Shown: positions 20,694 through 40,783 of the stretch, piece after piece
How positions within the stretch are numbered: the first letter of the stretch is position 1
How the letters are laid out: each line of letters begins with the position of its first letter
Source of the DNA: Methylococcales bacterium
GTDB lineage: Bacteria; Pseudomonadota; Gammaproteobacteria; Methylococcales; UBA1147
Assembly (NCBI GenBank): GCA_050740335.1
Contig: JBOICY010000486.1
Coordinates: 1-44,540 of the forward strand
Reading direction: 5' to 3'
DNA: 44,540 bases
The notes under the pieces: generated by a model
The model's database searches: none
Told to the model about the DNA's origin: nothing
Seen by the model: the letters and a program-made list of their open reading frames with translations, nothing else
Made by a program: the position numbers and the translations under genes

Positions 20694-21653
20694 ATGAGCG
20701 GAAATAAATATACCGAAGTACAATTCAAACGAGAACAAGAAGAAAAACTGAAACTTTTGCAAAGTCTGCAAGGTTTGCGCGCGGAATGCATGGAACTGCG
20801 AAAACAACTGGACGAGAAGGTCAACGACATGTCGGACGGTTTGCGCGCGACCTTCAATACAGAAGTTGCAGCTTCCCGGCAATGGCTAAGTAAAAAAGAA
20901 ACAACTCCGCCCGATACATACAGTATGGGCCACAGCCTGGATGGTTTACATCACGCACAGCGTAGGCAGGAACAAATCAATAGTGACGGGAGAACCTGTC
21001 TGAAAAAATTCCAACTGGCCTTGACCGAGAAAGCCGGCGCCATCGGCCGAGCGATAGCGGAACAACAGGTGACGGTAAATCAGACCCTGCTGCAAAATAG
21101 TGAGGTGCTGCAATTATGGTATGGCCAAGAGGCGGTGGCCGCCTGGAAATCAAGACTCGAACAGGCAGACCAGTCGGCTCACACCGAGCATTACCCTGAA
21201 GCCGAAGCTCAACTCAGTGCTCTGCACAGTGAAGTCCAGGCAAAGGTTACCCAGGCGACAGAACAGGAAACACAACATCAGCGGCGGTTGTATCTGCTCA
21301 CGGCGTTGCGGCAGGTCACTGCGGATCTACACTTTACCGAGATCACCGAACCCAACTTTGAAAAACCCGGCGAGCGCGGCAGCCGCATCGTATTTTCGGT
21401 GGACACCCATGACCGGGGGCGGATCGATTTTCACCTCACGATGGAGGGCTTGGGTTCATTCTCGGCGATGGGCGATAACCAGTGCCCGGTAGAGTTCGGC
21501 ACACTCTCAAAACAATTGAATGATCAATACGGCATTCAAACCCGATTCCGCCCGGCCACCGGTGAACCCGCTCCCGAATTGCGCCGCAAGGGCGAAAAGG
21601 AATTACCCGATGACGGAGCACAGCGAACGACAGGCGCCGACGCTGGGAACTGA
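20694..21653 (+). CDS. island gene G1: coiled-coil protein of unknown family
   Basis: 319 aa and intact. The N-terminal two thirds are Q/E/K/L-rich heptad-like. The C-terminal roughly 100 aa (RIVFSVDTHDRGRIDFHLTMEGLGSFSAMGDNQCPVEFG) look globular. Confidence 0.6.
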   Translation: MSGNKYTEVQFKREQEEKLKLLQSLQGLRAECMELRKQLDEKVNDMSDGLRATFNTEVAASRQWLSKKETTPPDTYSMGHSLDGLHHAQRRQEQINSDGRTCLKKFQLALTEKAGAIGRAIAEQQVTVNQTLLQNSEVLQLWYGQEAVAAWKSRLEQADQSAHTEHYPEAEAQLSALHSEVQAKVTQATEQETQHQRRLYLLTALRQVTADLHFTEITEPNFEKPGERGSRIVFSVDTHDRGRIDFHLTMEGLGSFSAMGDNQCPVEFGTLSKQLNDQYGIQTRFRPATGEPAPELRRKGEKELPDDGAQRTTGADAGN

Positions 21654-21655: not shown

Positions 21656-23505
21656 ATGTCCGTCTGGATTCAGAACCTGCGCAGTGCCCTGCAGGACAAA
21701 CCCGTACTCATCCTCTACGGCAACGTTCGGGATCGCTATATCGATCTGGAGGGCCGAGTATACCCCGGGCTCAACGAATTGCTGGAACAGGTCACCCAGG
21801 AGATCGGTTTGTCTTTTACCGAGCAGGTGACCTACGATCGTGTCGGCCACGAGCGCCGTATCCGGCTGACTGCCTCAAACCCGCCCCCGCAACGCCTGTT
21901 TCCGCGCCAACCAATCAGGTTGCTGACGACGGATTATCCAGTACCCGCCCCCGCGTCCAAAACACTGGCGAGCAGGTCCCCCCTCGCGGATATTCGCGAC
22001 CTGGGTGGCGGAAGTGGTAGAGCCGACGACCAATCGACTGTTCCTGCTCTACTACCTGGACAAGGCGATCGCCTATAAGAGCGGGTACCAGGACGATGAA
22101 AAGGAAGTCCTGCTGTGGCTCGAAAAAATCATCGAAAACATCAACTCGAACCACCGCTTGATCATGGTGGCTCTGCAGGATACCCAGCTGCCGCTGGAGC
22201 TTTACACGCACGCGCCCAAAGTCCGGGTTCTGCCCATCCCGTTACCCGGCAAACCCGACCGACTGGCTTACCTGTCCCATAAACTCGGTTCCAGCTATGC
22301 CCATCGCGAATTGGCCGCTGATCTTACCGATGGTTTATACCTGTATGATCTGGACGCGATCGCCAGGGAACTGCACGACCACACCGATGCGGACAGCCGC
22401 GAAGTGCGCCGTTTGGTCAACCGTTACCGGATCGGCGAGCAGGAGGATCATTGGGGTAGTTTAAGTATTACCAAGCTGCAGCAAGGCGAGGACTGGTTTA
22501 CCAACCAGGGAGGTGTCAAGGGCCAGAAAGAGGCCATTGAACGGGTAATCGACATGCTGGTGCTGGCCCGTGCCGGTCTGACCGGCATGGCCGGAGGCAC
22601 GGCGGCCAAACCCAAGGGCGTGCTGTTTTTCGCCGGCCCGTCGGGTGTCGGAAAAACCTATGTCGCGAAAAAGCTCGCGCAATTCCTGTTCAGTACGGAA
22701 CAAGCCTATATTCGCTTCGATATGAGCGAATTCAAGGATGAACACACCGTGTCCAAGTTGATCGGCTCCCCGCCGGGCTATGTGGGCTATGAACGCGGCG
22801 GCATGTTGACCAGCGCGGTGCGGGAGAAACCTTTTGCGGTTTTGTTGTTCTCGAAATTGAAAAAGCCAACCCGAAAATCTTCGATATTTTTCTGCAATTG
22901 CTCGATGAAGGCCGGCTCACGGACAGTCGCGGACAAACGGTGTTCTTTACCGAAACCGTGGTTATTTCACCTCCAATATCGGCGCCCGCGCGCTCGACAG
23001 CCGCGGCAATCCGATTGCCGAGCAGTCGGCCCTGGATCAACTCCTCGCCACCGATGCAAGCGGAGACGAACGGCAACAACGGGTACGGGAACACTTTCGC
23101 TGCGCAGTGGAAGACTTCTTTCTGTATGAAATCGCGCGCCCGGAACTGCTCAACCGCATCGGCAATAACATTATTCCCTTCAATTACATCCACAGTGTCG
23201 AGGTACAGAAGGACATCATCCTCTCCCATCTGCAACGCATCTCCGAAGAATTCGCCGACAAGTACCGCCGCCAGAACCACGGGCTGCATTTCAACGACCA
23301 AGTGGTCGATTGGTTGGTGCAGCGTTACCGGGCGCGCATCAGCCGCTTCGGCGGGCGCGGCATCACCAACGCCATCAACGATGAAGTCATGCTGCCCCTG
23401 GCGCGCGAGGTGCTTCGAGCGGAATATGAGAATGCCTCAAACTGGCAGTTTCGCCTGGAAATATCAGGACGAAGCGGCGCCATCGAGGTCAAGGCGACAT
23501 CATGA
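21656..23505 (+). CDS. island gene G2: Clp/Hsp100 D2-type AAA+ ATPase with a non-P-loop N-terminal region, interrupted by three frameshifts (pseudogene or assembly errors)
   Basis: Fragments are 21656-22078, 22005-about 22850, about 22850-22966, and 22966-23505. Walker A is [18 protein letters not shown]. Other motifs: [57 protein letters not shown], sensor-1 VVIFTSNIGA (needs one extra T at 22965-22967) and sensor-2 [14 protein letters not shown]. Confidence 0.75.
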
Positions 23506-24606
23506 ACCACCCCGCGCCCTGCGAATACATTGGTCGCCTTGAAGGTGACCAGGGTGAAAACCTGATCCTGATTCTGGACGCGTCTGAAAACGCCGCCCCC
23601 CCGGCGCGGCAATCTCATCCGCCTGTGCATCGAAACGCTCGCCGAACTTCCCGCCGATGTGCGCGTCCAGATTTATTTCCTCGGCAACCCGCAGCCCTAT
23701 TCCGCTCACAATCTGGCCACACAAGCCCCGGCATGGTTCAAGGCCAATTCTTTACGCGCGAGTCTGATCAGTCCGGTGCTGGAAATCCTCTCCGCTATGG
23801 AAGATACCTCCCTGGTCGTGCTGGGTGACGGGCCGATCTACGACCTCGAAGATTGGCGGGACTCGCCGTTCCGGGACCGGCTGCGGCTCGTCCACTTCGG
23901 CATTCCTCTGCAACCCACCGGCGCCGGTCTGCCGGAACTCGAGTCTCCCACCGTCCAAATACTCCTGCACTCGCTGTTCGACCCGGTGACCACGATTAGA
24001 TTGCGCGAATCTGGATTTTTTCCGTTAGACTGGGGCGGTTCCGCTTATCGCCTGATCGAGGATCAGGGACACTTCATCCTGCGCGGCGAACGCCCGTCGA
24101 CCGCAACGCTGACTGTTCGCTGCCTGCTGTGCCGGGACGAAAATCTTCATGTGGAACGCCGTCACGCCACGGGCCGTGTCAGCCGCTTAGAAATGCGCCC
24201 GCTGCCCGCCGTTGGCAGGCCGGCAGACGGGCGGCTGACCTCGGTCGAAGTCGCCATTCTCGACTTGGCCTGCCGGAAACTCGATTTTATCTGCCCACAC
24301 TGCGGCGCGGCTCATGCCTGGAATACCCTGCGATGCCGTCCGCATCGCGCGATCATTGACCAACCGGTGTTTCCCAGTCTATCGAATCAGCGCGGATTCG
24401 TTAAAATTTACCGTGACGCCGAAGGCGCGGAATACTGGCTGGAGGGCAAAGCCCTGTCCATCGGCGACGGTCTCGTTGCCCTCCGGGAAGGCGGCCGCGC
24501 CCGCGTGCTTCGCTTCGATCCCCTCAGCGCCCGCTGGTTGCCCGCAACCGGCGAATTCTCCGCTTACCAACCCTTGGGGGCCGGTTGCTATGGACTGCTG
24601 CTTTGA
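23502..24606 (+). CDS. island gene G3: vWA-like domain protein with a Cys-rich C-terminal domain, frameshifted at a C7 tract
   Basis: ATG 23502 overlaps the G2 stop (ATGA). [10 protein letters not shown], then the C7 tract at 23596-23602, then in the +1 frame [28 protein letters not shown] ... [12 protein letters not shown], which has a vWA-like beta-alpha pattern. The C-terminal part has CLLC and [15 protein letters not shown]. Confidence 0.6.
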
Positions 24607-25216
24607 CCGCACCGGTTTTCCCTATGTCGAGTTGAAAGACCCGGCCTTGGCGGTGAGCCTGTTGCCCCTGACCAAGCTCCAGTTCGAGCGCTACCTGGCG
24701 GATCTCACCCCGCACGGAGATCACTGGTATGAGGAACTTCTGAAACTCAATACGCGCGTCTCGCCCCAACACTTTACCCCGGAGCAGCGGGAGCGGCTGT
24801 TCCTGACCGGGTTGTTGCCCGCGGAAGCAGAAGCCTACGCCGCCTGGCTGGGGGAGGGCTATCGGCTTCCGACCGTGGCGGAATGGCGGGGGATCTATCG
24901 GTGTTTTCAATCTACTACATTTACACCGTTCAAAGCTTCGCCGACTGCCGACGTCGACGACCGCGCAGCCATTTTGTTACGACGCCTGGAGGCGCAAACG
25001 CGACCAAGGACACCGTTGGATTTCAGCCTGATGCACGGCGGTGTAGTGGAATGGGCGCGCGACGGTAACGTCTGGACCGGATTGGGCGCGCCGCGGCCCA
25101 GCTTCCAGACTAATCTGTGGAATCCTCTCAGGGACACGGTTCCCCCCATCCAGCCCAATCAACGTCTGGCTTTCTTCGGCGCGAGATTGGTCCGCGATCT
25201 GGCAAAAATCCCATGA
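24590..25216 (+). CDS. island gene G4: small FGE-sulfatase (SUMF1/EgtB/PvdO) fold protein
   Basis: About 208 aa from ATG 24590, overlapping G3 by 17 nt. Matching motifs: LPLTKLQFERYL, AEAYAAWLGEGYRLPTVAEW, MHGGVVEWARD and FFGARLVRD. Confidence 0.65.
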   Translation: MDCCFDRTGFPYVELKDPALAVSLLPLTKLQFERYLADLTPHGDHWYEELLKLNTRVSPQHFTPEQRERLFLTGLLPAEAEAYAAWLGEGYRLPTVAEWRGIYRCFQSTTFTPFKASPTADVDDRAAILLRRLEAQTRPRTPLDFSLMHGGVVEWARDGNVWTGLGAPRPSFQTNLWNPLRDTVPPIQPNQRLAFFGARLVRDLAKIP

Positions 25217-26738
25217 AGAAAACCCATCGTGTGCTTCTCGTCGCTTGCCTGTGGATCGGACTGTGCTTCATGGCTGTCCCCGCGGTATCGGCCCCGCTCG
25301 AGGAAGCACTGCAATCGGGGGATTTGCGATACTGGCGGGATCTTTATGCTACTCCACCGCCCGATGCCAAGTGGTTCTCCGCCTTGCGCGCTTCGCCAAT
25401 CTACTGGCTCCTGTCGCCCATGGCCTGGTGCTGGCTGCTGATGATATGTGCCTGGCTTGTCTACCGGACGGTATGGCGGCTGTCCGCCTACGGTGAGCTT
25501 GGACTCTTGAACCCGATCCTCGCCTTACCGGTTGGCTGGTTGTTTACTTGGACCCTGTGGGCGGGGTTTGTCGCCTTGCTGATGGGTCTAGTCGGCTTGT
25601 TGTCTATCCTTAATTCCTCCCGGTGGGATAACTTGGGGCAGGAGATGAAGTTGGAGGCGATGAATTCGGAGGCGATGAATTCGGAGGCATCTCAGATTGG
25701 ATGCGCATTCGCGGTGATTCTCTGTATGGCAATTGCGTTGATTATTCAGTTGATTATTCAGCAGAACAGCGAGGCGGTTTTCATGTGGATTGGTTTCTTT
25801 ATTGGCGCCAGTATTGGCGCAGTTGAAGGGCCGATTGGCTGTTTTATGGGCGCGTCGATTGTCGGGTGGATTGCCTCGAAGATTGGCGTGTGGATTATTG
25901 GCTTGGAGATTGTCCCTGTGATTGGTGAGTGGATTGTCGCAGTGCCTGGAGTGGTGCTTGGCAGCATGTTTGGCGGGTTTATTGGCTTCGTGATTGGCAA
26001 TTGGATTGGCTTTAGGATTCGCCGTGTGGAAGGCATGGGGATTGTCGCCGTGCCTGGCGTAGTGGGAGGGACCCTTTACCTCGTCCCAGGCAATTTCTGG
26101 ACCCATTACTTTCTCACCACCGCCCTGGATTCCCTTCTTCTGATCGGCGCCGTGCTCCTGACGTGGCTGCTCTTGGGTGCTGTGATTGTGATTGTAGTCT
26201 CGAGTGCCCACTTTCTGCCTTGGCTGAAGGCAAACAATGAGGCTGCCTGGAGGCTGTGTAAAAAGGACTACCACCGGTTTCGATTGGGTGCGGGCCTGCC
26301 TTGGCCGGTCCGCTGGAGCGGGCGGCTGTTGATGGTCGAGGAACCCCGCGCCAGCATCAGAATTTCGCCGACTATTTCGTCTGCCGATCCTGCGGCGGAC
26401 AGGAGGATTTTGTTACTGCCCGGCGACTCATCGGGATCATCGGTGCGATGCATTCCACTACCGTCCCCGACGAACCGAGCGTTTCTCTCTTTAACCCGTC
26501 CACCCGTCAGGCCATAAGCGCAGACATCGACTGCCTCGACGTCTATCCGCCACCACCGGGCCAAACCATCGACTACGACTATGCGGTCAATGCCGTGTTG
26601 AACGCGCTGAGCGAAGACCACCACCGCAGCCGGCGCCTGAAACAAATCCCGGTGCGGGTCCACGGCCATCCCCCGTTGCCCGAAAACACCCGCCGTATGC
26701 TGGCCGACCGCTTCGGCCCAATCGAAGGAGGATCGTGA
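25213..26738 (+). CDS. island gene G5: signal-anchored polytopic membrane protein with a glycine-zipper-like core and the conserved C-terminal module, with one frame disruption near 26349
   Basis: ATG 25213 overlaps the G4 stop (ATGA). Starts MKKTHRVLLVACLWIGLCFMAVPAVSA. The core is rich in G-x3-G and I-G motifs. The C-terminal module continues in ORF 26301-26738. Relative to G8 there are 2 extra nt (cgcgcc versus cgcc). Confidence 0.7.
25653..25690 (+). repeat. 2.5 tandem copies of a 15-bp unit (ggaggcgatgaattc), encoding EAMNS-EAMNS-EA
   Basis: Read directly; each full unit carries a GAATTC site. Confidence 0.85.
26106..26738 (+). repeat. dispersed direct repeat, copy A (3' end of G5)
   Basis: Aligns by hand with 29674-30298 over its whole length. 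Most positions are identical, for example ctgatcggcgccgtgct and gaacgcgctgagcgaagacca. Confidence 0.85.
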
Positions 26739-27359
26739 ATGTACACCGCATTATTGCAAACGCAAGAAATGTTGAACGTGGCCGCCTGGCAGGCCCCTTC
26801 GGTCGTCAACGGTCCCGGGGAGCGCTTCGTACTGTGGCTGCAAGGCTGTCCGAGGCGTTGTCCCGGCTGCATCAATCCCGGGTTCTTGGCCGATACCCTC
26901 CGCGACTTGGTTCCCGTCGAACAGGTGGCGGCCCGAATCCTGGCCGTTCCGGACATCGAGGGCGTCACCTACAGCGGCGGCGAACCTTTTTCGCAAGCCG
27001 CCGCGCTCGCGGTGCTGAGTGCGCGCTTGCAGGCGAAGGGACTCGGGATTGTGAGCTACAGCGGATACACCCTGCGGGAACTGGAGGACCACCCCGACCC
27101 TGGAATTCAGGCGCTCCTGGCGCGGCTGGACCTGCTGATCGACGGGCCTTATATTCAGGCTCGTTCGAGCCCCTTGCGCTGGCGCGGCAGCACCAACCAG
27201 CAATTGCATTTCCTGAGCCCGCGCTATGCCGCGTATGCGGATTGTGAATCGGAGTCGCGCGCCGAGGTCGAATTATCCCTGGACGCGAACGGCCTGGCCG
27301 CGACCGGAATTTGGCCGGAAGACTTGCTGCAGCGGCTGAAACAAATACTCGAGGGGTAG
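26739..27359 (+). CDS. island gene G6: radical-SAM activating enzyme of the NrdG/PflA type (4Fe-4S single-cluster domain)
   Basis: 206 aa and intact. VVNGPGERFVLWLQGCPRRCPGCINP carries the CxxxCxxC cluster motif. Also YSGGEPF and LIDGPY ... WRGSTNQQLHFL, as in anaerobic RNR activases. ATG 26739 abuts the G5 stop TGA. Confidence 0.8.
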   Translation: MYTALLQTQEMLNVAAWQAPSVVNGPGERFVLWLQGCPRRCPGCINPGFLADTLRDLVPVEQVAARILAVPDIEGVTYSGGEPFSQAAALAVLSARLQAKGLGIVSYSGYTLRELEDHPDPGIQALLARLDLLIDGPYIQARSSPLRWRGSTNQQLHFLSPRYAAYADCESESRAEVELSLDANGLAATGIWPEDLLQRLKQILEG

Positions 27360-27363
27360 GCCG

Positions 27364-28347
27364 ATGTTGTGTCCTTTCAATCTATGTCAAGTACGGCAAT
27401 TCACCAAAAACGCTGATTCCGGTTTTACCTGCCCCGAATGCAAAGAGTCCGTTCCTGCCTTATACGTAAACGGTTATTCAGAGTATCCGCCGTCGGTATT
27501 GAGTTCCGTCGGATTCCGCGGACATGGTAAAACCGTCTATCTGGCCGCGCTCTTTCATGTCCTGGCGCATCATGAACTGCCGCGTCATTGGTGGGGTTTT
27601 TATAAAGCTGTCGTTGGCCAACACAGTCAGGAGATTCTGGATAAAAATATCGGTATGCTGAAGGCAGGGAAGTTGCCCGATTCCACCGCCCAGAACTTTC
27701 CCAAACCCACCCTGGTTCAGGTAACTGGAATTCCGACCGGGAAAAGGGCGACTTTGCTTTGCTATGACGCTGCCGGCGAAAGCTTTGAAAAAATCACCCG
27801 AATGGTCACTTATGCAAAATTCTTGGCCGGCGCCACAACCGTCTTGTTTTTACTCAGCATTCCGGATCTAGAACGAGAAGAATATGCCAGCGTAGCCCAA
27901 GAGATGGAAAGACTGTTAACCGTCTACCGAAATGGTATCGAGGAATTGGGCGGCAATACTCGACCTCAGCGCCTGGTGGTAGTGTACACTAAGGCGGATG
28001 AATGGAACGCTTTGGCGCGCCCTGAATACAGTAAGTTGCTGAACTATCTTAAGGGCGGAACCTTCGACGGCCTGGACCATTATTCAAGCTATAAAAAATC
28101 GCTGCTCGCGACGTCTGATCAGTTGAAAAATCTGACAGCCGAACATTTGCGGGCACAGGCTTTTTTGAACCATGCCAAGGACAAATTTGCTGGCGTGGAA
28201 TTTTGTGTGATCTCCGCTCTGGGCGCATCGCCAAAGGGCCAGAACCTCCAGACTGGCATTGCTCCACGCCGGGTGCTCGACCCGTTGTTATGGGTCTTGG
28301 ATAAAGATCTTTCAAGGCGAAACTTTGTTTCCCATCCAGCCAAATAA
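27364..28347 (+). CDS. island gene G7: N-terminal Zn-ribbon plus a TRAFAC-type P-loop GTPase
   Basis: 327 aa and intact. CPFNLC ... CPEC ribbon. G1 is GFRGHGKTVYL, G3 is LLCYDAAGE and G4 is VVVYTKADEW. Confidence 0.7.
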   Translation: MLCPFNLCQVRQFTKNADSGFTCPECKESVPALYVNGYSEYPPSVLSSVGFRGHGKTVYLAALFHVLAHHELPRHWWGFYKAVVGQHSQEILDKNIGMLKAGKLPDSTAQNFPKPTLVQVTGIPTGKRATLLCYDAAGESFEKITRMVTYAKFLAGATTVLFLLSIPDLEREEYASVAQEMERLLTVYRNGIEELGGNTRPQRLVVVYTKADEWNALARPEYSKLLNYLKGGTFDGLDHYSSYKKSLLATSDQLKNLTAEHLRAQAFLNHAKDKFAGVEFCVISALGASPKGQNLQTGIAPRRVLDPLLWVLDKDLSRRNFVSHPAK

Positions 28348-28398
28348 GTGTCCGGCTTTCGTCAGCGTGAGATTGGTACGGGAAGTGACTAAGTACCG

Positions 28399-30298
28399 AT
28401 GCTGACATCCTTCGCCCGGTCCCTGATTTGCTTTGTTGGGGTAGCGCTAGTCCCTTCATCCCTTCTTGCAGGTGTTCTTCCTCGCACCGTTCCCTTCCTG
28501 GTTGAAGCGCTTAAGTATGAACCATATTGGGTACGCGTAGAAATCGTTGATGCACTCTCGGAGGGGGCGAAAGTCGGCGATCCCACTGCTGTTCCTGCTC
28601 TAATCGAAGTGTTGAACGATGACTCTGAAAAGGTACGGAGAAAAGCCGTCGATGCATTCGTTCAGATTGGCAACGCCGCGGTTCCCGCGCTGGTTGAAGC
28701 ACTGAAGAATGACAGTTACACGGTACGGGATGCACTCGCTGGGATTGGTAAACCTGCTGTTCGCGCCCTGATTGAGGCGCTGAAGGACGACTCTGAAAAT
28801 GTTCGCGCGGGAGCCGCTGATGTGTTGGGGAAGATCGGTGATCCTGCTACTGTTTCCGCCCTGGTCGAGGTGGCTTAAGAAGGACCCTGAATGGGTGCGG
28901 AATGAAGCCGCCGATGCACTCGTTGAGATTGGTAGCGCAGCCGTCCCCGCCTTGGTTGAGGCGCTGAACGATCACACTAAAGAGGTGCGGGAAAAAGCCG
29001 CCGAGGCTTTGGGAAAAATTGGCAACCCTACATACCCCGTCCTTGCGAAGGCTGCTCAGTCTGGCAATTTGAACTTCTGGCGGGTTTTGTATGCCAAGCT
29101 TCCCGCGAACGCAGGATGGGTTCGGGTTCTGCGTACCATTCCTACCTATTGGCTCCTATCCCCCATGACCTGGCTCTGGCTGATGATAATATGGGGTGTG
29201 CTTACCCACGACAGGGATTGGGAATGGCGGCTGTCCGGCTTCGGCAGGCTTGAACTTTTGTCTCTAATCCTCGCTTTACCGATTGGCTGGTTGTTCTCTT
29301 GGAGCGTATCGGCGGGGTTTATCGCCTTGCTGGTGAGTTTACCCATCGCGTGGGGGGTTGCCCTTCCTATTCCAAGGCGTAGTAAGTTGGATGAGGATCC
29401 GATTGAAAGCGTGTTGATGCCATTCTTCCTCTTATCCGGGGCACTTGTCTGGTTGACTACTCCAGCGAACAACTCGTTGACTATTAGCGAACAACCTACC
29501 GTGTGGATTGGAATGGCATGGTTTAGCGGGTTAATTAGCTTGGTACTTGCCGCATTCGTTGACTCTACGATTGGCATGCGCAGGGGGATTGTTCCGAGCG
29601 TGCTGATGGGCTTGGCGATTGGCCCGGTGATATTCTACCCCCCCAACAATTCCTCGCCCGATTACTCTGGCGATTACTTTCTAACCACCGCCGGGGATTC
29701 CCTCGTTCTGATCGGCGCCGTGCTGCTGACGTGGCTGCTCTTGGGCGTCGTGAGTGTAGTCTTAAGTGCCCGCTTTCTGCCTTGGCTTAAACTGAGCAAA
29801 GAGGCGACTAATTGGCTGTGTAAAAGGGATTACCACCGCTTCCGATTGGGACCGGGCCTCCCCTGGCCGGTCCGCTGGAGCGGACGATTGTTCGCGGTCG
29901 AGGAACCCCGCCAGCATGACAATTTCGCCGAATATTTCGTATGCCGGTCCTGCGGTAGACACGAGGGTTTTGTTACCGCCCGGCGACTAATCGGAATCAT
30001 CGGTGCGATACCTTCCGCCGTCGCGCCCGACGAATGGAACGTTTCCCTCTTTAATCCGATTGCCCGTCAGACCATAAGCGCCGACATCGACCGCCTGGAT
30101 CTGTACCCTCCGCCATTGGGCAAAACCATTGACTACGACTATACAGTCAACGCCGTATTGAACGCGCTGAGCGAAGACCATCACCGCATCCGGCCCTTGA
30201 AACAAATCCCGGTATGGATCCATGGCCGGCCGCCGCTGCCCGAAAACACCCGCCGCATGTTGGCCGACCGCTTCGGCTCAGTGAAAAACGTCGCGTAA
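28399..30298 (+). CDS. island gene G8: signal-anchored HEAT-repeat protein fused to the membrane region and C-terminal module shared with G5, with one 1-nt insertion near 28873
   Basis: ORFs 28399-28878 and 28799-30298. Removing one G at 28872-28873 restores ALVEVLKKDPEWVRNEAADALVEIG, which fits the repeat consensus. Downstream are the TM region and the C-terminal module. Confidence 0.75.
28486..29035 (+). repeat. six tandem HEAT/PBS-lyase-type repeats (about 31 aa, about 93-bp period) inside G8
   Basis: Recurring units of the form VPAL(I/V)EALxDDxxxVRxxAAxALGKIGxxA. Confidence 0.7.
29674..30298 (+). repeat. dispersed direct repeat, copy B (3' end of G8)
   Basis: See copy A at 26106-26738. 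Confidence 0.85.
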
Positions 30299-30345
30299 CA
30301 CGGGTGCCCTTGAACCAGAAGCGATGCCCCTTGAGGAGATCTCCG

Positions 30346-31960
30346 ATGCCGATCAGTGCCGCTCAACTGATTTACGCCAATGTCGAAAAAGACCGCTCGC
30401 CGCACCGGCGGGGTGGATTTCAAACCCTGTATTACAGCCAGTCGCGTCTCGGCGAGACGCAGGTCGACGCGATCGAGCCGCGCCTGTTTTACGCGCATGG
30501 CGCGGGCAATCCGCCGAAAGGCCTGTTTTTTCCTTTGGGTCAGAAGCAACTGGTTTTGGCGCGCATTGTTCCGCTGGAAGACGTCGATGCCTTTGGCCGG
30601 GAGGGCCGTTATCTGGCCCATGCGCTGGTGTTCGAGCGCAGCGACTGGATCGCCGAGAGTCTGGACCCCATCACCCTGCTCCAGCGGTTGCCCTTTTTAA
30701 CTGATTTGGATCAGGCGCTGGCTTCGGGCGATGAGGCCAGCGGCGATATTGAACCGCTTGATCTGACCCTGGCCGCTACGAAGAGCCTTCAGACGCGATG
30801 GCCGGTAGCGGTGCTCCAACGACTGACCCTTTATGCGCTGCGCGCCGAGGCGATAGCCCGGGAACGCCGCGCCTTGGCCTTGATCGGTCCGCCCGCCGGG
30901 GTCGAGCAGGCGCTGGCCGAGGTGCTCAGGGCGGTGCCGGTGGCCTTGAACCCCACGTGCAGTTTCGACAGCTTTTTTTATGGAGGTAATTTCACCGCCA
31001 CTCCGTTCTGGGCGGTGGGTCTGCCGGAAGCCCCGCCGCCGGGTCGTTTTATTCGGGTGGATGTGACGAAGCGTGCATTTTTCGACGACGAAGCCGCACC
31101 CGTCGCGCGGAGCGCCTTCGAGTGTTGGGTGGTGGCACGGCTGCAAGACGGAGAACCCGGTCTCGAGCACGAGCGTGAAATCGCTTACGACCTCTGCCGC
31201 TGGCTGGAGGGAACCCTCCCGATTGCCGCTTTGCCGACGGAAGTGCCGGAACCGGTTCTCACGGCGGTATTCCATGCGGCCCCGGCGCAGGCTAAAGAGA
31301 GGGTCTATGAACGCCTGACGCACACTTTGCCGGAGGTTTTGGCGGAGTTCGTGTGGACCGATGTCCAACCGCAACGGACCGATCCCGAGCGCTACGCGGA
31401 ATTGCGCCAGGGTTTTGCGGCGCCGATGCTGTCGGAGTGGTTGTGGCTCCGGTTGACCCGAGCCGGTGCGAAACCGCCCATGCCGGCGGTGCAACGCGCC
31501 GTGGCGGAATGGCTGCGACGCTATCCGCATCCCAATCTGACTTTGCTGTCGCTGATCTGGGACGGAAAGTGGCAAACCTTGCAAGCCGAACTGGTTCGTA
31601 TGGAACCGGACGCCTACGAGGCGTTGCTTCCATCCTTGCTGCGCGCCGCCCCTAAGCCTGTTGCTGCCCGAACGCGGCGAGCCCTTCGTGCGCGGCTGGC
31701 TGGCCGAACGCTTCGCCGCACCACTATCCTTGCCGGAACTGGTCAGCGCCCTGCTCCGCCAGCATGAACCCGCCGCCCTCGTTCCGCTTGCCCCGCTGCT
31801 AAAGGATTTGCGTCCACGGGAAAGGCGGTCATTGGAGCAGCTCATCGTCCCGCACGCGGCGGATATCCCCCCCGAATTTGCCCGAGCCCTAAGCGAGGCC
31901 AGGGAAACTCAATCCTCCGGTGGGTTTTTGGCCGGACTGAAACGCTGGTGGCAATCGTGA
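30346..31960 (+). CDS. island gene G9: large mostly helical protein with a GAP1-like (GTPase-associated protein 1) N-terminus, frameshifted near 31645-31660
   Basis: GAGGAG lies 8 nt upstream of ATG 30346. MPISAAQLIYANVEKDRSPHRRGGFQTLYYSQSRL resembles the QLxYTS...GGxQ N-terminal signature I associate with GAP1-N domains. ORF 30214-31767 is continued by 31661-31960 in another frame. Confidence 0.5.
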
Positions 31961-32765: not shown

Positions 32766-32962
32766 GGTAGGCATTACGGAGGGTGATGGCTCGCACACTG
32801 GTTTTCGGTTCCGAGTTGATTCTTTTTTCCTCCGCACATGCAGAACGGTCACCGATAAGCGCGGGTGAGCGCGACGGAGGAAACCAACATGAAGGAATAC
32901 CGTATACCCACGGCTACTCTGGCGCTTTCGGTGACATCCGGAACCGCGGAGGTTGGCCCGGT

Positions 32963-33568
32963 TTGAACACGGTCGGCCCGGAACAGCGCCACCAGGAACG
33001 CATGCGGCGGAAAAAGGCGGTGATCGATGCCGCGATCGAACGCGCCGATCGCGATCAGGGCCTGCTTCTGGTGCTTACCGGAAACGGCAAGGGCAAATCC
33101 AGCTCGGCATTCGGGATGGCCGCGCGTGCGCTGGGTCACGGCATGAAGGTCGGCGTTGCGCAATTCATCAAGGGCCGTTCGGATACCGGCGAGGAGGTAT
33201 TTTTTCGCCGCGAGCCCGGTGTGATCTGGCATGTGCTCGGCGAGGGCTTCACGTGGGAGACGCAGAATCGCGCGCGCGATACCGAAACCGCGCGGCAAGG
33301 CTGGACCGTCGCGCGGAAGATGCTGAGCGACCCGGGTCTCAATCTCGTGATACTCGACGAACTGACCTACCCGCTCAAATACGGTTGGCTCGAGCTTGAA
33401 ACCGTATTGGCCGACCTCAAGAACCGGCCTCGGATGCAGCACGTGGTGGTCACCGGCCGTGCCGCGCCCGAAGCACTCATCGACGCGGCCGATACCGTAA
33501 CCGAGTTGCGCGATGTCAAACACGCGTTCCGGGCCGGGATTCGTGCGCAGAACGGGGTGGATCTATGA
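32963..33568 (+). CDS. cobO: cob(I)yrinic acid a,c-diamide adenosyltransferase
   Basis: QRHQERMRRKKAVIDAAIERA ... LLLVLTGNGKGKSSSAFGMAARALGHG ... VILDE. I prefer TTG 32963, with GGAGG 10 nt upstream, giving about 201 aa. The longest ORF starts at 32783 inside the riboswitch region. Confidence 0.8.
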   Translation: MNTVGPEQRHQERMRRKKAVIDAAIERADRDQGLLLVLTGNGKGKSSSAFGMAARALGHGMKVGVAQFIKGRSDTGEEVFFRREPGVIWHVLGEGFTWETQNRARDTETARQGWTVARKMLSDPGLNLVILDELTYPLKYGWLELETVLADLKNRPRMQHVVVTGRAAPEALIDAADTVTELRDVKHAFRAGIRAQNGVDL

Positions 33569-34848
33569 GACGCTGCCCCGCGCTGTTTATCGCCGCACCC
33601 GCATCCGGTCAGGGTAAAACCACCGTCACCGCGGCGCTGGCCCATTATCACCGGAATCATGGCCGCGTGGTTCGGGTATTCAAGACCGGTCCCGATTTTC
33701 TCGACCCGATGATCCTGGAACGGGCCTCCGGCGCTCCGGTTTACCAACTCGACCTGTGGATGGGCGGCGAGGCACACTGCCGCGACCTGATCCATGCAGC
33801 GGCCGGCGAAGCCGATCTGATCCTGATAGAGGGTGTGATGGGGCTATTCGACGGCGATCGATCCAGCGCCGATCTCGCGATGCTGTTCGGCATCCCGGTG
33901 CTCGCCGTGATCGACGGTTCGGCCATGGCCCAGACCTTCGGCGCCCTCGCGCACGGGCTCGCGACCTACCGCGCGGGACTGCCTTTCGCCGGCGTGTTCG
34001 CGAACCGCGTCGCGAGCGAGAATCACTATGCGATGCTCGCCGAGAGCCTGCCGGCGGGATTAGCCTCCTTCGGCTGGCTCGCGCGCGATCCGAACATCGC
34101 CCTGCCCGAGCGGCACCTGGGCATTGTGCAGGCAAGCGAGATCGCCGATCTCGATTCCCGTATCGCCACGGCCGCCGCCGCACTCAGGGGCGTCGACCAG
34201 GCCTTGCCGCCCCCGGTGTCATTCGCCGCCCCGGAGGAAACCTCCGTCATACCGCTGCTCGAAGGCGTGCGCATCGCCGTGGCGCGCGATGCGGCCTTCG
34301 CGTTTCTATATCGCGCCAACCTCGATTTGTTGCGCGCGCAGGGCGCCGAGCTGGCGTTCTTTTCTCCATTGGATAATGAGCGACCGCCACAGTCCGATGC
34401 CCTCTACCTGCCGGGTGGCTATCCCGAATTGTACCTGGAGCAACTCGCGGCCAACCAGGGCATGAACGCCGCGATCCATGCCCATCACCGCGCCGGTAAA
34501 CCGATCGTCGCCGAATGCGGCGGGATGTTGTATTTGATCGAATCACTGACCGACCTCCAGGGCCACTGCGCCGGGATGGTCGGCCTGTTACCGGGGCGCG
34601 CCACGATGCAGGCAAGGCTCGGCAACCTGGGGCTGCACGGAGCACAACTTCCGGAAGGAGAACTCAGAGGCCACACTTTTCACTATTCGAGCATGACGGG
34701 CGGCTGTGAGCCGATTACGCACTCTCGTTCCGCCCGCCATCACGGCAGCGCTGAGCCGGTCTATCGCATCGGGCGGCTGACCGCTTCCTATCTGCACTGG
34801 TACTTCCCCTCCAACCCGAGCGCATCGGCACGACTGTTCCTGACATGA
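33565..34848 (+). CDS. cobB: cobyrinate / hydrogenobyrinate a,c-diamide synthase
   Basis: 427 aa. FIAAPASGQGKTTVTAALA P-loop, KTGPDFLDP, and a C-terminal GATase domain with AECGGMLYL. Confidence 0.9.
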   Translation: MRRCPALFIAAPASGQGKTTVTAALAHYHRNHGRVVRVFKTGPDFLDPMILERASGAPVYQLDLWMGGEAHCRDLIHAAAGEADLILIEGVMGLFDGDRSSADLAMLFGIPVLAVIDGSAMAQTFGALAHGLATYRAGLPFAGVFANRVASENHYAMLAESLPAGLASFGWLARDPNIALPERHLGIVQASEIADLDSRIATAAAALRGVDQALPPPVSFAAPEETSVIPLLEGVRIAVARDAAFAFLYRANLDLLRAQGAELAFFSPLDNERPPQSDALYLPGGYPELYLEQLAANQGMNAAIHAHHRAGKPIVAECGGMLYLIESLTDLQGHCAGMVGLLPGRATMQARLGNLGLHGAQLPEGELRGHTFHYSSMTGGCEPITHSRSARHHGSAEPVYRIGRLTASYLHWYFPSNPSASARLFLT

Positions 34849-35498
34849 AGCGATTCACGCAAGCGGAAATCGACGCGGTTTATCGCGTCATACGCGAACG
34901 GCGCGACATGCGACACTTCCTGCCCGATCCGGTCGACCCGGACCTGCTGATCCGCCTGCTGCAGGCGGCGCACTGCGCCCCAAGTGTGGGACTGATGCAG
35001 CCCTGGCGTTTCGTACGCGTTGGCGACCCGGTCCTGCGGCGCGAGATCCATACCCTGGTCGAGGCGGAACGCAGAGCCACCGCGCTGGCGCTGGACGAGC
35101 GCCAGGACGAATTCCTGCGCCTCAAGGTCGAGGGCATACTCGAGTGCGGTGAATTACTCGTCGCCGCGCTGATGGATGCGCGGGAACGCCACATCTTCGG
35201 GCGCCGCACGCTGCCCGAGATGGATTTAGCCTCGGTCGCCTGCGCAATCCAGAACTTGTGGCTTGCCGCACGCGCCGAAGGGATCGGCATGGGATGGGTT
35301 TCCCTGTTCGATCCGGAGGCCTTGGGCCGGCTGCTCGCGATGCCTTCGGACGCAAAGCCGGTGGCCATCCTGTGCCTCGGTCATGTGGAAGCCTTCTATT
35401 CCGCGCCGATGCTCGAACTCGAGGGTTGGACCCGGAGCCGGCAATTAGAAACGCTCGTGTACCGCGACGCCTGGGGCAACACCGAGACGCCGGCATGA
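34845..35498 (+). CDS. bluB: 5,6-dimethylbenzimidazole synthase
   Basis: 217 aa, nitroreductase fold. IRERRDMRHFLPDPV ... AHCAPSVGLMQPWRF. Lies in cob operon context. Confidence 0.85.
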   Translation: MKRFTQAEIDAVYRVIRERRDMRHFLPDPVDPDLLIRLLQAAHCAPSVGLMQPWRFVRVGDPVLRREIHTLVEAERRATALALDERQDEFLRLKVEGILECGELLVAALMDARERHIFGRRTLPEMDLASVACAIQNLWLAARAEGIGMGWVSLFDPEALGRLLAMPSDAKPVAILCLGHVEAFYSAPMLELEGWTRSRQLETLVYRDAWGNTETPA

Positions 35499-35758
35499 AT
35501 TTCGATCCCGGCAAAGGTCCCCGGCGCATCGTCTGCCTGACCGAGGAAACCACCGAGACGCTGTATCGGCTCGGCGAGCACTTCCAACCCGAACAGGTCA
35601 AGGCCCGGCCGGGGTGGGAAAAGATTCCCGCGGTTCGGAGCAGTCACCTTTACGAAGTCAAATCATCCGACATCCTGCAGCCGGGTCCGGCCGCATTAAC
35701 CGACGGTGTTCGACAGATTCATGCGATCGTGCTGCGTTGGCTGGAAGAGCAGCGATGA
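35495..35758 (+). CDS. 87-aa mini-ORF resembling a BtuF/TroA-type periplasmic-binding protein with its middle deleted
   Basis: PRRIVCLTEETTETLYRLGE looks like the N-terminal strand and helix. It is fused directly to RPGWEKIPAVRSSHLYEVKSSDILQPGPAALTDGV, which looks like the C-terminal end. ATGA overlaps are present at both ends. Confidence 0.4.
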   Translation: MNFDPGKGPRRIVCLTEETTETLYRLGEHFQPEQVKARPGWEKIPAVRSSHLYEVKSSDILQPGPAALTDGVRQIHAIVLRWLEEQR

Positions 35759-40744: not shown

Positions 40745-40783
40745 CTCCGACCGGGCTCCCGATCTGATAAAAGCGAGCACACT

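What the first reader, a model, noticed from the sequence alone, without database searches (positions are those of the whole stretch)
25213..30298. Two paralogous membrane proteins bracket the radical-SAM/GTPase pair, and about 630 bp of their 3' ends is a diverged direct repeat
G5 and G8 share two modules.

(i) A juxtamembrane and TM module. G5 reads SGDLRYWRDLYA..P..AKW...LRASPIYWLLSPMAWCWL ... LALPVGWLFTW. G8 reads SGNLNFWRVLYA..P..AGW...LRTIPTYWLLSPMTWLWL ... LALPIGWLFSW.

(ii) A C-terminal module of about 200 aa, at 26106-26738 in G5 and 29674-30298 in G8. It includes KKDYHRFRLGAGLPWPVRWSGRL / KRDYHRFRLGPGLPWPVRWSGRL, and TIDYDYxVNAVLNALSEDHHRxRxLKQIPVxxHGxPPLPENTRRMLADRFG. By hand alignment, roughly four of five nucleotides are identical.

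Between these modules the proteins differ completely. G5 has a glycine-zipper-like core. G8 has a different TM core, plus six N-terminal HEAT repeats where G5 has only a signal anchor.

G5 keeps the last partial HEAT unit (LEEALQSGDL versus LAKAAQSGNL). This suggests one paralogue arose from the other by gain or loss of the repeat array.

Both begin with a hydrophobic signal-anchor-like segment. That would place the HEAT array outside the cytoplasm, which is unusual for HEAT repeats.

I do not recognise the shared C-terminal module as any named domain.
Basis: seen in the sequence. Interest (0 to 1): 0.75.

Follow-up and report, generated by a model that had tools for sequence, protein, structure and literature searches.

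The report
Paralogous membrane subunits, GTPase conflict system
Two related membrane-protein genes share an unnamed zinc-ribbon tail domain that marks a rare, computationally predicted bacterial GTPase-based conflict (defence-type) system, but in this contig both genes, and two of their partner genes, are broken by small insertions and deletions.

Summary
The repeat is real. Window 26105-26720 matches 29673-30280 at 82% over 616 nt (E 4e-179). A second block covers the juxtamembrane module, and a third lies upstream of both start codons.

Neither gene is one open reading frame. G5 has 2 extra bases at 26347-26348, and G8 has 1 extra base at 28873.

The surrounding genes form a GAP1-N2 / DO-GTPase2 "GTPase-centric conflict system" (Kaur et al. 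2020). Here it also carries an NrdG-like radical SAM enzyme, a ClpB-like AAA+ ATPase, an FGS-domain protein and two unknown partner proteins.

The shared C-terminal module matches no Pfam, NCBIfam, PADLOC or PDB entry. It folds confidently (pLDDT 93) as a zinc ribbon followed by a small alpha/beta domain, with no structural relative. A profile search finds it at the C-terminus of 283 protein clusters. Most are HEAT-repeat proteins or multi-pass membrane proteins, and 10 of the 13 loci examined hold system genes beside the C-dom gene.

My best reading: G5 and G8 are old paralogues (dS about 0.5, dN/dS 0.27 in the tail). Each has an exported N-terminus, a variable glycine-zipper membrane core and a cytoplasmic docking domain.

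In this contig the system is decaying: 7 indels in 4 genes.

Verdict: a new variant of a known kind.

The parts
20694..21653 (+). Conserved partner protein of unknown function (319 aa), intact
   Evidence: No Pfam, NCBIfam or PADLOC hit. Orthologue in L006 (71% identity). Distant relative next to a HEAT+C-domain gene in L012 (26%, E 1e-20).
21656..23505 (+). ClpB-like AAA+ ATPase gene (AAA_2 + ClpB_D2-small), broken by four deletions
   Evidence: Pfam AAA_2 1.2e-25 and ClpB_D2-small 3.6e-07. Alignment to L006 shows -1 at 21884, -4 at 21970, -1 at 22851 and -1 at 22966. Three-frame read. Homologous AAA+ genes sit next to C-domain genes in L012 and L015.
23659..24606 (+). Conserved partner protein with a CxxC...C zinc-ribbon-like motif (315 aa), intact
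   Evidence: Weak Zn-ribbon hints only. Orthologue in L006 (70%). Distant relative after the AAA+ gene in L012.
24590..25216 (+). FGS (formylglycine-generating-enzyme/sulfatase-type) domain protein. Its stop codon overlaps the G5 start codon.
   Evidence: Pfam FGE-sulfatase 4.8e-07, 30.1 bits against a cut-off of 23.3. Orthologues lie directly upstream of C-domain genes in L001, L006, L007 and L009.
25213..26738 (+). G5: signal peptide, HEAT-like capping hairpin, conserved TM module, glycine-zipper core, last TM and C-domain. Broken by 2 extra bases at 26347-26348.
   Evidence: ORFs 25117-26517 and 26301-26738. 2-nt insertion relative to G8. Repaired 507-aa protein vs G8, E 3e-124.
26105..26738 (+). 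G5 copy of the direct repeat: last TM helix plus the zinc-ribbon/alpha-beta C-domain
   Evidence: blastn 82% over 616 columns. dS 0.52, dN 0.14, dN/dS 0.27 over the C-domain.
26739..27359 (+). NrdG-like radical SAM enzyme (CxxxCxxC), intact. The GTPase start codon follows 4 nt after its stop codon.
   Evidence: Pfam Fer4_12 4.5e-28. NCBIfam NrdG 87.8 bits, below the cut-off of 126. The same rSAM-GTPase pair occurs in L003, L006, L008/L016-L018 and L011; in L015 an rSAM gene (3745-4326) is present, but the contig ends before the next gene could be identified.
27364..28347 (+). DO-GTPase2 with an N-terminal zinc ribbon, intact. Homology to orthologues ends at 28308.
   Evidence: Pfam DO-GTPase2 3.3e-10, 40.5 bits against a cut-off of 27. 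The sequence shows GFRGHGKT, DAAGE and TKAD. The L006 GTPase aligns only to 27364-28308.
28319..28393 (+). Remnant of the 3' end of an FGS gene directly upstream of G8. This is the duplication scar. The GTPase stop codon lies inside it.
   Evidence: blastn 25145-25197 vs 28331-28383, 81%, E 9e-10. The repeat finder D8 puts the two start codons in register, spacing 3186. tblastn FGS residues 182-206, E 0.002.
28399..30298 (+). G8: N-terminal hydrophobic segment, six HEAT units plus a partial one, conserved TM module, a different TM core, last TM and C-domain. Broken by 1 extra base at 28873.
   Evidence: ORFs 28399-28878 and 28799-30298. Frame read. Pfam HEAT_2 2.4e-38.
29673..30298 (+). G8 copy of the direct repeat: last TM helix plus C-domain. 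The structural model covers 29786-30295.
   Evidence: AlphaFold2 model pLDDT 93.4, pTM 0.86.
30343..31960 (+). GAP1 (GAP1-N2 type) gene, split into two ORFs by an 11-nt deletion at 31643
   Evidence: Pfam GAP1-N2 2.5e-07, 31.2 bits against a cut-off of 24. The single 542-aa L003 protein covers both window ORFs. The deletion is located.

Best explanation
G5 and G8 are two old paralogues of a membrane subunit that belongs to a proteobacterial variant of the GAP1-N2 / DO-GTPase2 'GTPase-centric' conflict system.

**Shown**
- The locus encodes a DO-GTPase2 and a GAP1-N2 protein, plus an NrdG-like radical SAM enzyme, a ClpB-like AAA+ ATPase, an FGS-domain protein and two unknown partners.
- The shared tail is a domain with no name in the libraries searched. 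It is a zinc ribbon (CxxC...CxxC in most relatives, CxxDxH...CxxC in this subfamily) followed by a five-strand, two-helix alpha/beta unit.
- This domain always sits at the C-terminus. It follows HEAT arrays, multi-pass membrane regions, or both.
- It recurs next to the same set of system genes. Two or three paralogues per locus is a recurrent pattern.
- The tail is under purifying selection, while the membrane core is unalignable.
- The duplicated unit ran from about 68 nt inside the upstream FGS gene to the stop codon.

**Inferred**
- The N-terminus is exported. In G8 that is the HEAT array; in G5 it is reduced to one capping hairpin. It acts as a periplasmic binding or sensing surface.
- The variable glycine-zipper core is the membrane-perturbing output.
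- The cytoplasmic C-domain docks the subunit to the GTPase/GAP1/AAA+ machinery, so that NTP-dependent switching controls it.

**State of this locus**
- The system is decaying. G5, G8, GAP1 and the AAA+ gene together carry seven frame-breaking indels.
- The rSAM, GTPase, FGS and the two unknown genes remain intact.
For: **System identity**
- Pfam DO-GTPase2 40.5 bits, GAP1-N2 31.2 bits, Fer4_12, AAA_2 and FGE-sulfatase.
- The class is described in PMC7159879, sections 27 and 29.

**Family**
- The close family has only 10 clusters among 5.8 billion proteins.
- It occurs in 3 of 185,579 species genomes.
- An exhaustive profile search finds 283 clusters at E <= 1e-3, with the match always at the C-terminus.
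- 51 of 78 sampled members carry HEAT repeats, and no Pfam model covers the tail.

**Contexts**
- L002/L007: FGS/TIR, paralogue A, GAP1, paralogue B, GTPase.
- L003: GAP1, P0002, rSAM, GTPase.
- L006: same partners as the window, with one HEAT-TM-C-domain gene.
- L009: FGS, HEAT-TM-C-domain, second C-domain gene, GAP1, GTPase.
- L011: rSAM, GTPase, 666-aa protein, soluble HEAT-C-domain.
- L012 and L015: C-domain gene, then AAA+, then the p23659-like gene (L012) or rSAM (L015).
- L001: three tandem paralogues.

**Structure**
- pLDDT 93.4 with a 39-sequence alignment.
- Best PDB match E 0.12, best BFVD match E 0.047.

**Selection**
- C-domain dS 0.52, dN/dS 0.27. The middle has 24% identity.

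**Duplication scar:**

**Export**
- G5 signal-type N-terminus.
- L006 protein starts with a signal segment and a beta-rich segment before its HEAT repeats.

**Decay**
- Indels of +2, +1, -1, -4, -1, -1 and -11.
- Nine of ten housekeeping genes elsewhere in the window match full-length NCBIfam profiles in a single stretch; the tenth (DctA) matches in two.
Against: - No experiment exists for any DO-GTPase/GAP1 system. The 'conflict system' label is itself a computational prediction.
- Docking of the C-domain to the GTPase, GAP1 or AAA+ rests only on co-occurrence. No complex was modelled.
- Two nearly invariant aspartates (ADID) could mean catalysis rather than docking.
- One HEAT+C-domain gene (L014) has no system genes nearby. 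The neighbours in L013 were not identifiable.
- TM counts from a hydropathy scan are too crude to fix the topology.
- The FNIII-repeat component that the 2020 paper lists for GAP1-N2 systems was not seen among the window island's gene products.
- The frameshifts could in principle be assembly errors. No reads were available.
Confidence: 0.6

Rival explanations
1. The genes are intact in the organism, and the frame breaks are assembly or consensus errors. The locus would then be a working system rather than a decaying one.
For: - The contig comes from a metagenome assembly: the window's own gene P0001 is the sole member of its cluster, on one contig of 44,540 nt.
- Three of the seven indels are single-base deletions, one of them in a C-run (21884).
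- The C-domain still shows dN/dS 0.27.
Against: - The indels include -4, -11 (between short direct repeats) and +2, which are not typical read errors.
- Nine of ten housekeeping genes spread over the rest of the window match full-length profiles in a single stretch; the tenth (DctA) matches in two stretches and was not examined further.
- Related loci are also damaged. L006 has an in-frame stop in the AAA+ gene and a frameshift in GAP1.
- L008/L016-L018 is a heavily deleted version seen on 17 contigs from several samples.
Confidence: 0.2
2. The C-domain is an enzyme, a metal-dependent transferase or hydrolase that uses the near-invariant D-x-D. It would be the effector itself, not an adaptor. 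The HEAT or TM parts would only localise it.
For: - D100 and D102 are nearly invariant across the 39-sequence wider alignment.
- The best, non-significant fold matches are to the DxD-bearing GT-A domains of LH3 and glycogenin.
Against: - The fold matches are far from significant (E 0.12, TMq 0.28, 71 columns).
- Apart from the zinc ligands and the two aspartates, the wider alignment has only two further near-invariant positions, V143 and F163, both hydrophobic.
- The domain is small (about 120 residues after the zinc ribbon).
- It is the constant part of proteins whose other parts vary. That is the pattern of an adaptor in these systems (PMC7159879, sections 28 and 35).
Confidence: 0.15
3. The C-domain proteins are clients or substrates, not subunits. 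The NrdG-like radical SAM enzyme and the ClpB-like AAA+ would modify or unfold them, for example through a radical on the conserved R-(L/V)-I-G-(I/V)-I-G strand, to release a membrane-toxic form.
For: - rSAM and AAA+ genes lie directly beside C-domain genes in the window, L003 and L015 (rSAM and AAA+), and in L012 (AAA+).
- NrdG-type activases act on a Gly in an RVxG-type motif (established knowledge of glycyl-radical enzymes).
- The tail has an invariant G-x-I-G.
Against: - L002/L007 and L009 have C-domain paralogues with a GTPase and GAP1 but no rSAM.
- The rSAM gene sits immediately upstream of the GTPase gene wherever both were seen, rather than tracking the C-domain gene.
- The motif fits the glycyl-radical signature poorly: I instead of C/S/A at -1, and I/V/L instead of Y at +1.
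- The motif is modelled as a buried sheet strand, not a finger loop.
Confidence: 0.1
4. The two conserved ends are kept alike by gene conversion. They serve as recombination handles for swapping the variable membrane core. The direct repeat can also delete the rSAM-GTPase pair.
For: - dS is uneven along the genes: 0.22 in the last TM, 0.52 in the C-domain, 0.80 in the N-terminal module, and saturated in the middle.
- G5 and G8 are each other's closest C-domain relatives, but only just: 78% against 76% and 72% for L006.
Against: - dS of 0.5 means there has been no recent conversion.
- Uneven dS is also expected from codon or selective constraint and from small samples (37 codons for the last TM).
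- In L002/L007 the two paralogues are not each other's closest relatives (68% against 74% to L006).
- No chimeric or deleted derivative of this particular pair was found.
Confidence: 0.1

Closest known systems
GAP1-N2-type GTPase-centric (DO-GTPase) conflict systems, Kaur, Burroughs, Iyer and Aravind, eLife 2020 (PMC7159879)
   Same: - DO-GTPase2 with an N-terminal zinc ribbon and Walker B Glu.
- A GAP1 protein with a GAP1-N2 domain.
- Several TM-rich variable components, an FGS-domain protein and a neighbouring Uma2 nuclease.
- Frequent paralogue doubling.
- Rapid diversification of the non-core parts.
   Different: - The host is a proteobacterium; the genes in the rest of the window indicate a methylotroph. 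It is not an actinobacterium, firmicute, planctomycete, verrucomicrobium or chloroflexus.
- No FNIII-repeat component was seen.
- GAP1 is separated from the GTPase by G8.
- The locus adds an NrdG-like radical SAM enzyme, a ClpB-like AAA+ and HEAT/TM proteins with the zinc-ribbon/alpha-beta tail.
- The paper's text does not describe any of these additions for this subtype.
GAAD, the GTPase-associated adaptor domain of GAP1-N1 systems (same paper, section 28)
   Same: A small domain confined to these systems. It is fused to variable effector parts and is predicted to couple them to the constant GTPase/GAP1 core.
   Different: GAAD is all-alpha and belongs to GAP1-N1 systems. The tail domain here is a zinc ribbon plus an alpha/beta unit and belongs to GAP1-N2/DO-GTPase2 neighbourhoods. 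No homology was tested or claimed.
Glycine-zipper and SLATT-type membrane effectors of conflict systems
   Same: A TM-rich, GxxxG-dense, fast-evolving core (faint Pfam Gly-zipper_Omp in P0002). It sits beside NTPase switches and is a plausible membrane-perturbing output.
   Different: There is no SLATT or other named effector match. The core has many more helices than the 2-TM SLATT domain. It is flanked by an exported N-terminus and a cytoplasmic docking domain.
HEAT_2 / HEAT_PBS repeat proteins
   Same: G8 has six canonical units (HEAT_2 130.7 bits, HEAT_PBS 88.6 bits). Most wider-family members are HEAT arrays directly fused to the tail domain.
   Different: In G8, in L006 and in several relatives (P0014, P0016, P0019, P0023, P0051) the array follows an N-terminal hydrophobic segment and precedes TM helices. 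It is therefore probably periplasmic, which is unusual for HEAT repeats.

Membership tests
GAP1-N2-type GTPase-centric conflict system (PMC7159879) | A DO-GTPase of the TRAFAC class with a conserved Glu in Walker B | tested here: met
   Pfam DO-GTPase2 E 3.3e-10, 40.5 bits against a cut-off of 27. The sequence shows GFRGHGKT, DAAGE and TKAD.
GAP1-N2-type GTPase-centric conflict system (PMC7159879) | A GAP1 protein carrying the GAP1-N2 domain, usually encoded downstream of the GTPase | tested here: met
   Pfam GAP1-N2 E 2.5e-07, 31.2 bits against a cut-off of 24, at 30343-31767. It is downstream of the GTPase but separated from it by G8. The gene is split by an 11-nt deletion.
GAP1-N2-type GTPase-centric conflict system (PMC7159879) | One or two N-terminal zinc ribbons on the GTPase | tested here: met
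   The N-terminus reads CPFNLC...CPEC. hhalign places the second C-domain knuckle on CPEC. One ribbon is present, not two.
GAP1-N2-type GTPase-centric conflict system (PMC7159879) | A protein with rapidly evolving FNIII repeats | tested here: not met
   No FN3 hit among the window island's gene products scanned with Pfam. HEAT/TM proteins with the tail domain occupy the position of the variable component.
GAP1-N2-type GTPase-centric conflict system (PMC7159879) | Variable, often TM-bearing effector components in the operon | tested here: met
   G5 and G8 have many hydrophobic segments, an FGS protein lies upstream, and the membrane cores are unalignable.
HEAT repeat proteins (Pfam HEAT_2/HEAT_PBS) | Tandem units of about 30 residues that match the HEAT profiles above threshold | tested here: met
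   G8: HEAT_2 130.7 bits (cut-off 27.7), HEAT_PBS 88.6 bits. G5: no hit. Only the capping hairpin remains.
Anaerobic ribonucleotide reductase activase NrdG | Score above the NCBIfam equivalog cut-off, plus an adjacent NrdD | tested here: not met
   TIGR02491 scores 87.8 bits against a cut-off of 126.1. No NrdD is in the window. It is NrdG-like (Fer4_12, CxxxCxxC) but not NrdG.
Zinc ribbon | Two CxxC-type knuckles on beta hairpins that bind one zinc | tested here: inconclusive
   The wider family has CxxC...CxxC. The G5/G8 subfamily has CxxDxH...CxxC, invariant in 11 sequences. The model shows paired short strands at both knuckles. The PDB profile search gives only weak rubredoxin and S14 hits (E 0.5-6). 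Metal binding was not testable.
Known anti-phage defence systems (PADLOC-DB v2) | Significant match of the component proteins to a PADLOC model set | tested here: not met
   Only the AAA+ fragment hits candidate models (PDC-M37B 4e-14, DolB 1.9e-08). G5, rSAM, GTPase, GAP1 and FGS give nothing.

The most novel reading that the evidence does not exclude
The zinc-ribbon/alpha-beta tail is a previously undescribed fold. It defines its own subtype of GTPase-centric conflict system: DO-GTPase2, GAP1-N2, a ClpB-like AAA+, an NrdG-like radical SAM enzyme and two unknown partners.

In this subtype the periplasmic HEAT arrays would act as extracytoplasmic sensors. Paralogous glycine-zipper membrane subunits would be switched into a membrane-damaging state through the tail domain. 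That would make it a transmembrane, NTP-gated suicide or immunity device in Gram-negative bacteria.
Probability: 0.35. Interest if true: 0.7.

Novelty: new variant of a known kind. Interest (0 to 1): 0.5.

Why it matters
DO-GTPase/GAP1 systems are known only from one comparative-genomics paper, and none has been tested. This work adds three things.

- **A compact marker domain.** It has no Pfam model, a confident model and no structural relative. It ties HEAT-repeat and membrane proteins to these systems and could be used to find and classify them.
- **A fixed partner set.** ClpB-like AAA+, NrdG-like radical SAM and two unknown proteins. The paper's text does not describe this set for GAP1-N2 systems.
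- **A likely case of HEAT repeats working outside the cytoplasm.**

It also shows that such systems decay quickly. The window's own locus is largely pseudogenised, and the two other loci of the close family that hold the same partner genes (L006 and L008) are also damaged. This matters when choosing a locus to test.

Tried and rejected
- **Homology of the tail to other system components.** hhalign of the 39-sequence tail profile against the window's GTPase, GAP1 and the 315-aa partner found nothing. The idea that the tail is a truncated copy of the GTPase's zinc ribbon plus P-loop start was dropped.
- **Named domains.** Pfam, NCBIfam and PADLOC scans of repaired G5 found nothing, and Pfam on repaired G8 found only the HEAT repeats.
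- **First structure prediction.** With only 10 close sequences it failed (pLDDT 46). It was replaced by the 39-sequence run.
- **PDB and BFVD.** A PDB sequence-profile search and Foldseek against PDB and BFVD gave no significant match.
- **'Pair of GYF domains fused to a TM-rich region'.** The 2020 paper mentions this for planctomycete systems. I considered it as an identity for the tail. There is no Pfam GYF hit, the motifs are unlike GYF, and the paper's figure could not be seen. It is not supported.
- **Checking the G5 frameshift in other assemblies.** An exact-pattern scan of JGI metagenome contigs across the site, and a protein-based scan with G5, both found nothing.
- **Viral contigs.** No relative of the close family. 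The wider alignment was too diverse for that tool.
- **Word-indexed protein search with the wide profile.** It returned only close fragments, named 'hypothetical protein' where a source gave any name.
- **Supplement of the 2020 paper.** The stored part holds only an organism table, with no architecture list.
- **Phase variation at the frameshift sites.** Rejected, because the sites are not long simple repeats.

Full report
**1. Observation**

The six-frame ORF list shows the reported genes on the + strand between 25.1 and 30.3 kb. blastn of the two gene regions gives three collinear matches:

| G5 side | G8 side | Identity | E-value | What it covers |
|---|---|---|---|---|
| 26105-26720 | 29673-30280 | 82.1% over 616 columns | 3.8e-179 | last TM helix and C-terminal module |
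| 25401-25590 | 29146-29341 | 75% | 4e-33 | juxtamembrane/TM module |
| 25145-25197 | 28331-28383 | 81% | 9e-10 | upstream of both start codons |

The repeat finder and a MAFFT alignment agree. The 3' repeat and the two shared modules are real and far beyond chance.

Neither gene is one reading frame.
- The alignment shows 2 extra bases in G5 (CCCCGCGCC against CCCCGCC, at 26347-26348). This splits G5 into ORFs 25117-26517 and 26301-26738.
- G8 has 1 extra base at 28873, inside HEAT unit 5. This puts 28399-28878 and 28799-30298 in different frames.
- After I removed those bases, the 507-aa and 632-aa proteins align at 49% identity, E 3e-124.

**2. What the locus is**

Pfam identifies the surrounding genes:

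| Coordinates | Assignment | Score |
|---|---|---|
| 27364-28347 | DO-GTPase2 | 40.5 bits, cut-off 27 |
| 30343-31767 | GAP1-N2 | 31.2 bits, cut-off 24 |
| 26739-27359 | Fer4_12/NrdG-like radical SAM | below the NrdG equivalog cut-off |
| 24590-25216 | FGE-sulfatase (FGS) domain | 30.1 bits, cut-off 23.3 |
| 21656-23505 | ClpB-like AAA+ | AAA_2 plus D2-small |

The G8 N-terminus is six HEAT units.

DO-GTPase plus GAP1 define the 'GTPase-centric' conflict systems predicted by Kaur et al. 2020 (PMC7159879).
- That paper notes that these systems often carry TM-rich components, and it mentions FGS-domain effectors in planctomycete GAP1-N2 systems.
- Its text does not describe HEAT/TM proteins with this tail for GAP1-N2 systems, nor the radical SAM and ClpB-like partners.
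- A full-text search found no other paper on these systems.

PADLOC has no model for any component except weak AAA+ hits.

**3. The family**

A search of 5.8 billion proteins with G8 (minus HEAT) found only ten clusters. A scan of one genome for each of 185,579 species found three loci:
- L006: an uncultured proteobacterium.
- L007: Candidatus Methylumidiphilus alinenensis.
- L008: another uncultured proteobacterium.

The window itself carries fhcD and a cobalamin operon. This fits a methylotrophic proteobacterium.

All close members share one plan:
- an N-terminal hydrophobic or signal segment;
- the hairpin L..A.QSG(D/N)L..WR;
- a conserved TM module (YWLLSPM.W.WL ... ILALP.GW);
- a length-variable, GxxxG-rich membrane core;
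- a last TM helix;
- a tail of about 170 residues.

Within this close family the tail has invariant C-x2-D-x-H-R, a well-conserved PWPVRWSG stretch (invariant R, W and G), invariant C-R-x-C-G, G-x-I-G-A and S-A-D-I-D-x-L-x-x-Y-P, and the conserved AVNAV..ALSEDH.R and LP.N.RR.L motifs.

**4. The tail is a wider domain with no name in the libraries searched**

An exhaustive HMMER search of 1.84 billion cluster representatives with the tail profile gave 283 proteins at E <= 1e-3 and 99 at E <= 1e-10. Where the target is not a short fragment, the match lies at its C-terminus.
- Profile positions 50-168 are the widespread core. They run from the second knuckle to the end.
- Of 78 sampled members, 51 carry N-terminal HEAT repeats. 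No Pfam model covers the tail.
- A hydropathy scan sorts members into three classes: soluble HEAT+tail, multi-TM+tail, and HEAT+TM+tail like G8.
- In most of the wider family the first knuckle is CxxC. The element is therefore a zinc ribbon whose second ligand became Asp/His in the G5/G8 subfamily.

With a 39-sequence alignment, AlphaFold2 gives pLDDT 93.4 and pTM 0.86.
- Two knuckle hairpins carry an inserted PWPVRWSG helix.
- A five-strand sheet with two helices follows.

No relative was found by any route:
- Foldseek finds nothing significant in the PDB (best E 0.12, TMq 0.28) or in BFVD (best E 0.047).
- A PDB profile search gives only weak rubredoxin and S14 zinc-ribbon hits.
- hhalign finds no relation to the GTPase, GAP1 or the 315-aa partner.

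**5. Genomic association**

Contexts were read from gene calls and from tblastn with the window's proteins.

| Locus | Gene order |
|---|---|
| Window | p20694, AAA+, p23659, FGS, G5, rSAM, GTPase, G8, GAP1 |
| L006 | p20694h, AAA+, p23659h, FGS, one HEAT-TM-tail gene (712 aa), Uma2, GAP1, rSAM, GTPase |
| L003 | Uma2, GAP1, P0002, rSAM, GTPase |
| L002/L007 | FGS/TIR, paralogue A, GAP1, paralogue B, GTPase |
| L009 | FGS-like, P0014 (HEAT-TM-tail), second tail gene, GAP1, GTPase, Uma2 |
| L011 | rSAM, GTPase, 666-aa protein, soluble HEAT-tail |
| L012 | p20694-like, HEAT-tail, AAA+, p23659-like |
| L015 | TM-tail, AAA+, rSAM |
| L001 | FGS, then three tandem paralogues |
| L014 | solitary HEAT-tail gene |
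| L013 | neighbours not identifiable |
| L010 | too short to judge |

Two points follow.
- The tail domain travels with a recurrent set of genes.
- Two or three tail-domain paralogues occur in 4 of about 10 informative loci.

**6. History of the pair**

*The duplicated unit.* The third blastn block is the last ~70 nt of the FGS gene. It is repeated directly upstream of G8, with the two start codons in register.
- Homology of the window's GTPase to its orthologues stops at 28308.
- The GTPase stop codon lies inside this scar.
- The duplicated unit therefore ran from inside FGS to the stop codon of the membrane gene.

*Origin of the gene order.* A tandem duplication of an L006-like operon, followed by complementary deletions, would give the window's order. 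This is an inference.

*Age and selection.* The copies are old. Nei-Gojobori estimates:

| Region | dS | dN | dN/dS | Note |
|---|---|---|---|---|
| Tail (C-domain) | 0.52 | 0.14 | 0.27 | |
| N-terminal module | 0.80 | 0.32 | 0.40 | |
| Middle | saturated | | | 24% aa identity |

G5 and G8 tails are each other's closest relatives only narrowly: 78%, against 76% and 72% to L006.

*Direction of HEAT change.* HEAT loss in G5 is favoured because HEAT is the common partner in the wider family, and the capping hairpin persists in HEAT-less members.

**7. Topology**

- G5 starts MKKTHR, then a hydrophobic stretch, then AVSA|P. This is a Sec-type signal by inspection.
- G8 and several HEAT-TM-tail relatives also start with a hydrophobic segment.
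- The L006 orthologue has a signal segment and a beta-rich stretch before its HEAT units. That stretch gives only a weak CarboxypepD_reg-like hit, E 0.048.
- The zinc ribbon and the K/R-rich stretch after the last TM argue for a cytoplasmic tail.
- My hydropathy scan cannot fix the helix number.

An exported HEAT array is therefore likely but not shown.

**8. State of the locus**

Alignment to orthologues places the following indels in the island:

| Gene | Indels |
|---|---|
| AAA+ | -1, -4, -1, -1 |
| G5 | +2 |
| G8 +1 | +1 |
| GAP1 | -11, between short direct repeats; it splits GAP1 into 30343-31767 and 31661-31960 |

- That is seven frame-breaking indels in four genes within 10 kb.
- Nine of ten housekeeping genes elsewhere in the window match full-length profiles in a single stretch.
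- L006 has an in-frame stop in its AAA+ gene and a frameshift in GAP1.
- L008/L016-L018 is a deleted remnant seen on 17 contigs.
- The rSAM-GTPase pair is intact in all of them.

I read this as real decay, with about 0.2 probability left for assembly error.

**9. Mechanism and verdict**

Shown:
- The locus belongs to this system class.
- The tail is a conserved, selected domain with no name in the libraries searched, and it is linked to the system.
- The pair arose by duplication.

Inferred: an exported sensing N-terminus, a variable membrane-perturbing core, and a cytoplasmic tail that docks to the GTPase/GAP1/AAA+ switch.

Rivals are listed separately: an enzymatic tail, a client of the rSAM/AAA+, and recombination handles.

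The finding is a new variant of a known, still untested kind of system. Interest is moderate. The domain and its partner set are new and testable, but this particular locus is largely dead.

Noticed in passing
window 21656-23505: The ClpB-like AAA+ gene of the island is read in three frames. Relative to the L006 orthologue it has deletions of 1, 4, 1 and 1 nt. The L006 copy itself has an in-frame stop codon.
   Followed up: yes
window 30343-31960: The GAP1-N2 gene and the following 99-aa ORF are one gene in L003 (542 aa). The window has an 11-nt deletion at 31643, flanked by short direct repeats.
   Followed up: yes
window 20694-21653 and 23659-24606: These two proteins have no family assignment. 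They are conserved partners of the system: 70-71% identity in L006, and 26-37% next to a HEAT+tail gene and an AAA+ gene in L012. Their role is unknown.
   Followed up: partly
L008 10001-10417; L016, L017, L018: A heavily deleted version of the same system occurs on 17 contigs from several samples. It has FGS in pieces, only the last ~132 residues of the tail domain and about 40 residues of GAP1, but an intact rSAM-GTPase pair. The rSAM-GTPase pair seems to outlive the rest.
   Followed up: partly
L003 84-905; L006 10517-11041; L009 16442-17949; L016 5800-6582: Uma2-family (putative restriction endonuclease) genes recur beside these systems. None is present in the window's island.
   Followed up: no
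L007 3672-4988: In Ca. Methylumidiphilus the gene upstream of the first paralogue is an FGS-domain protein with a TIR_2 domain between its two FGS-homologous parts. The same slot can therefore carry a known NAD-type effector domain.
   Followed up: no
window 10896-12527: The DctA-like transporter ORF is 543 aa against a 428-residue profile, and it matches in two stretches. This could be an over-long TTG start, an insertion, or another frame problem.
   Followed up: no
window 25834-26064: The glycine-zipper core of G5 contains four ~60-nt internal direct repeats (60-73% identity, each starting ATTGGC). The core probably grew by tandem duplication.
   Followed up: no
window 32783-41527 and 42431-43324: A cobalamin biosynthesis operon (cobO-like, cobB, cbiB, cobQ, cobT) and fhcD flank the island. 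They point to a methylotrophic or methanotrophic proteobacterial host.
   Followed up: partly
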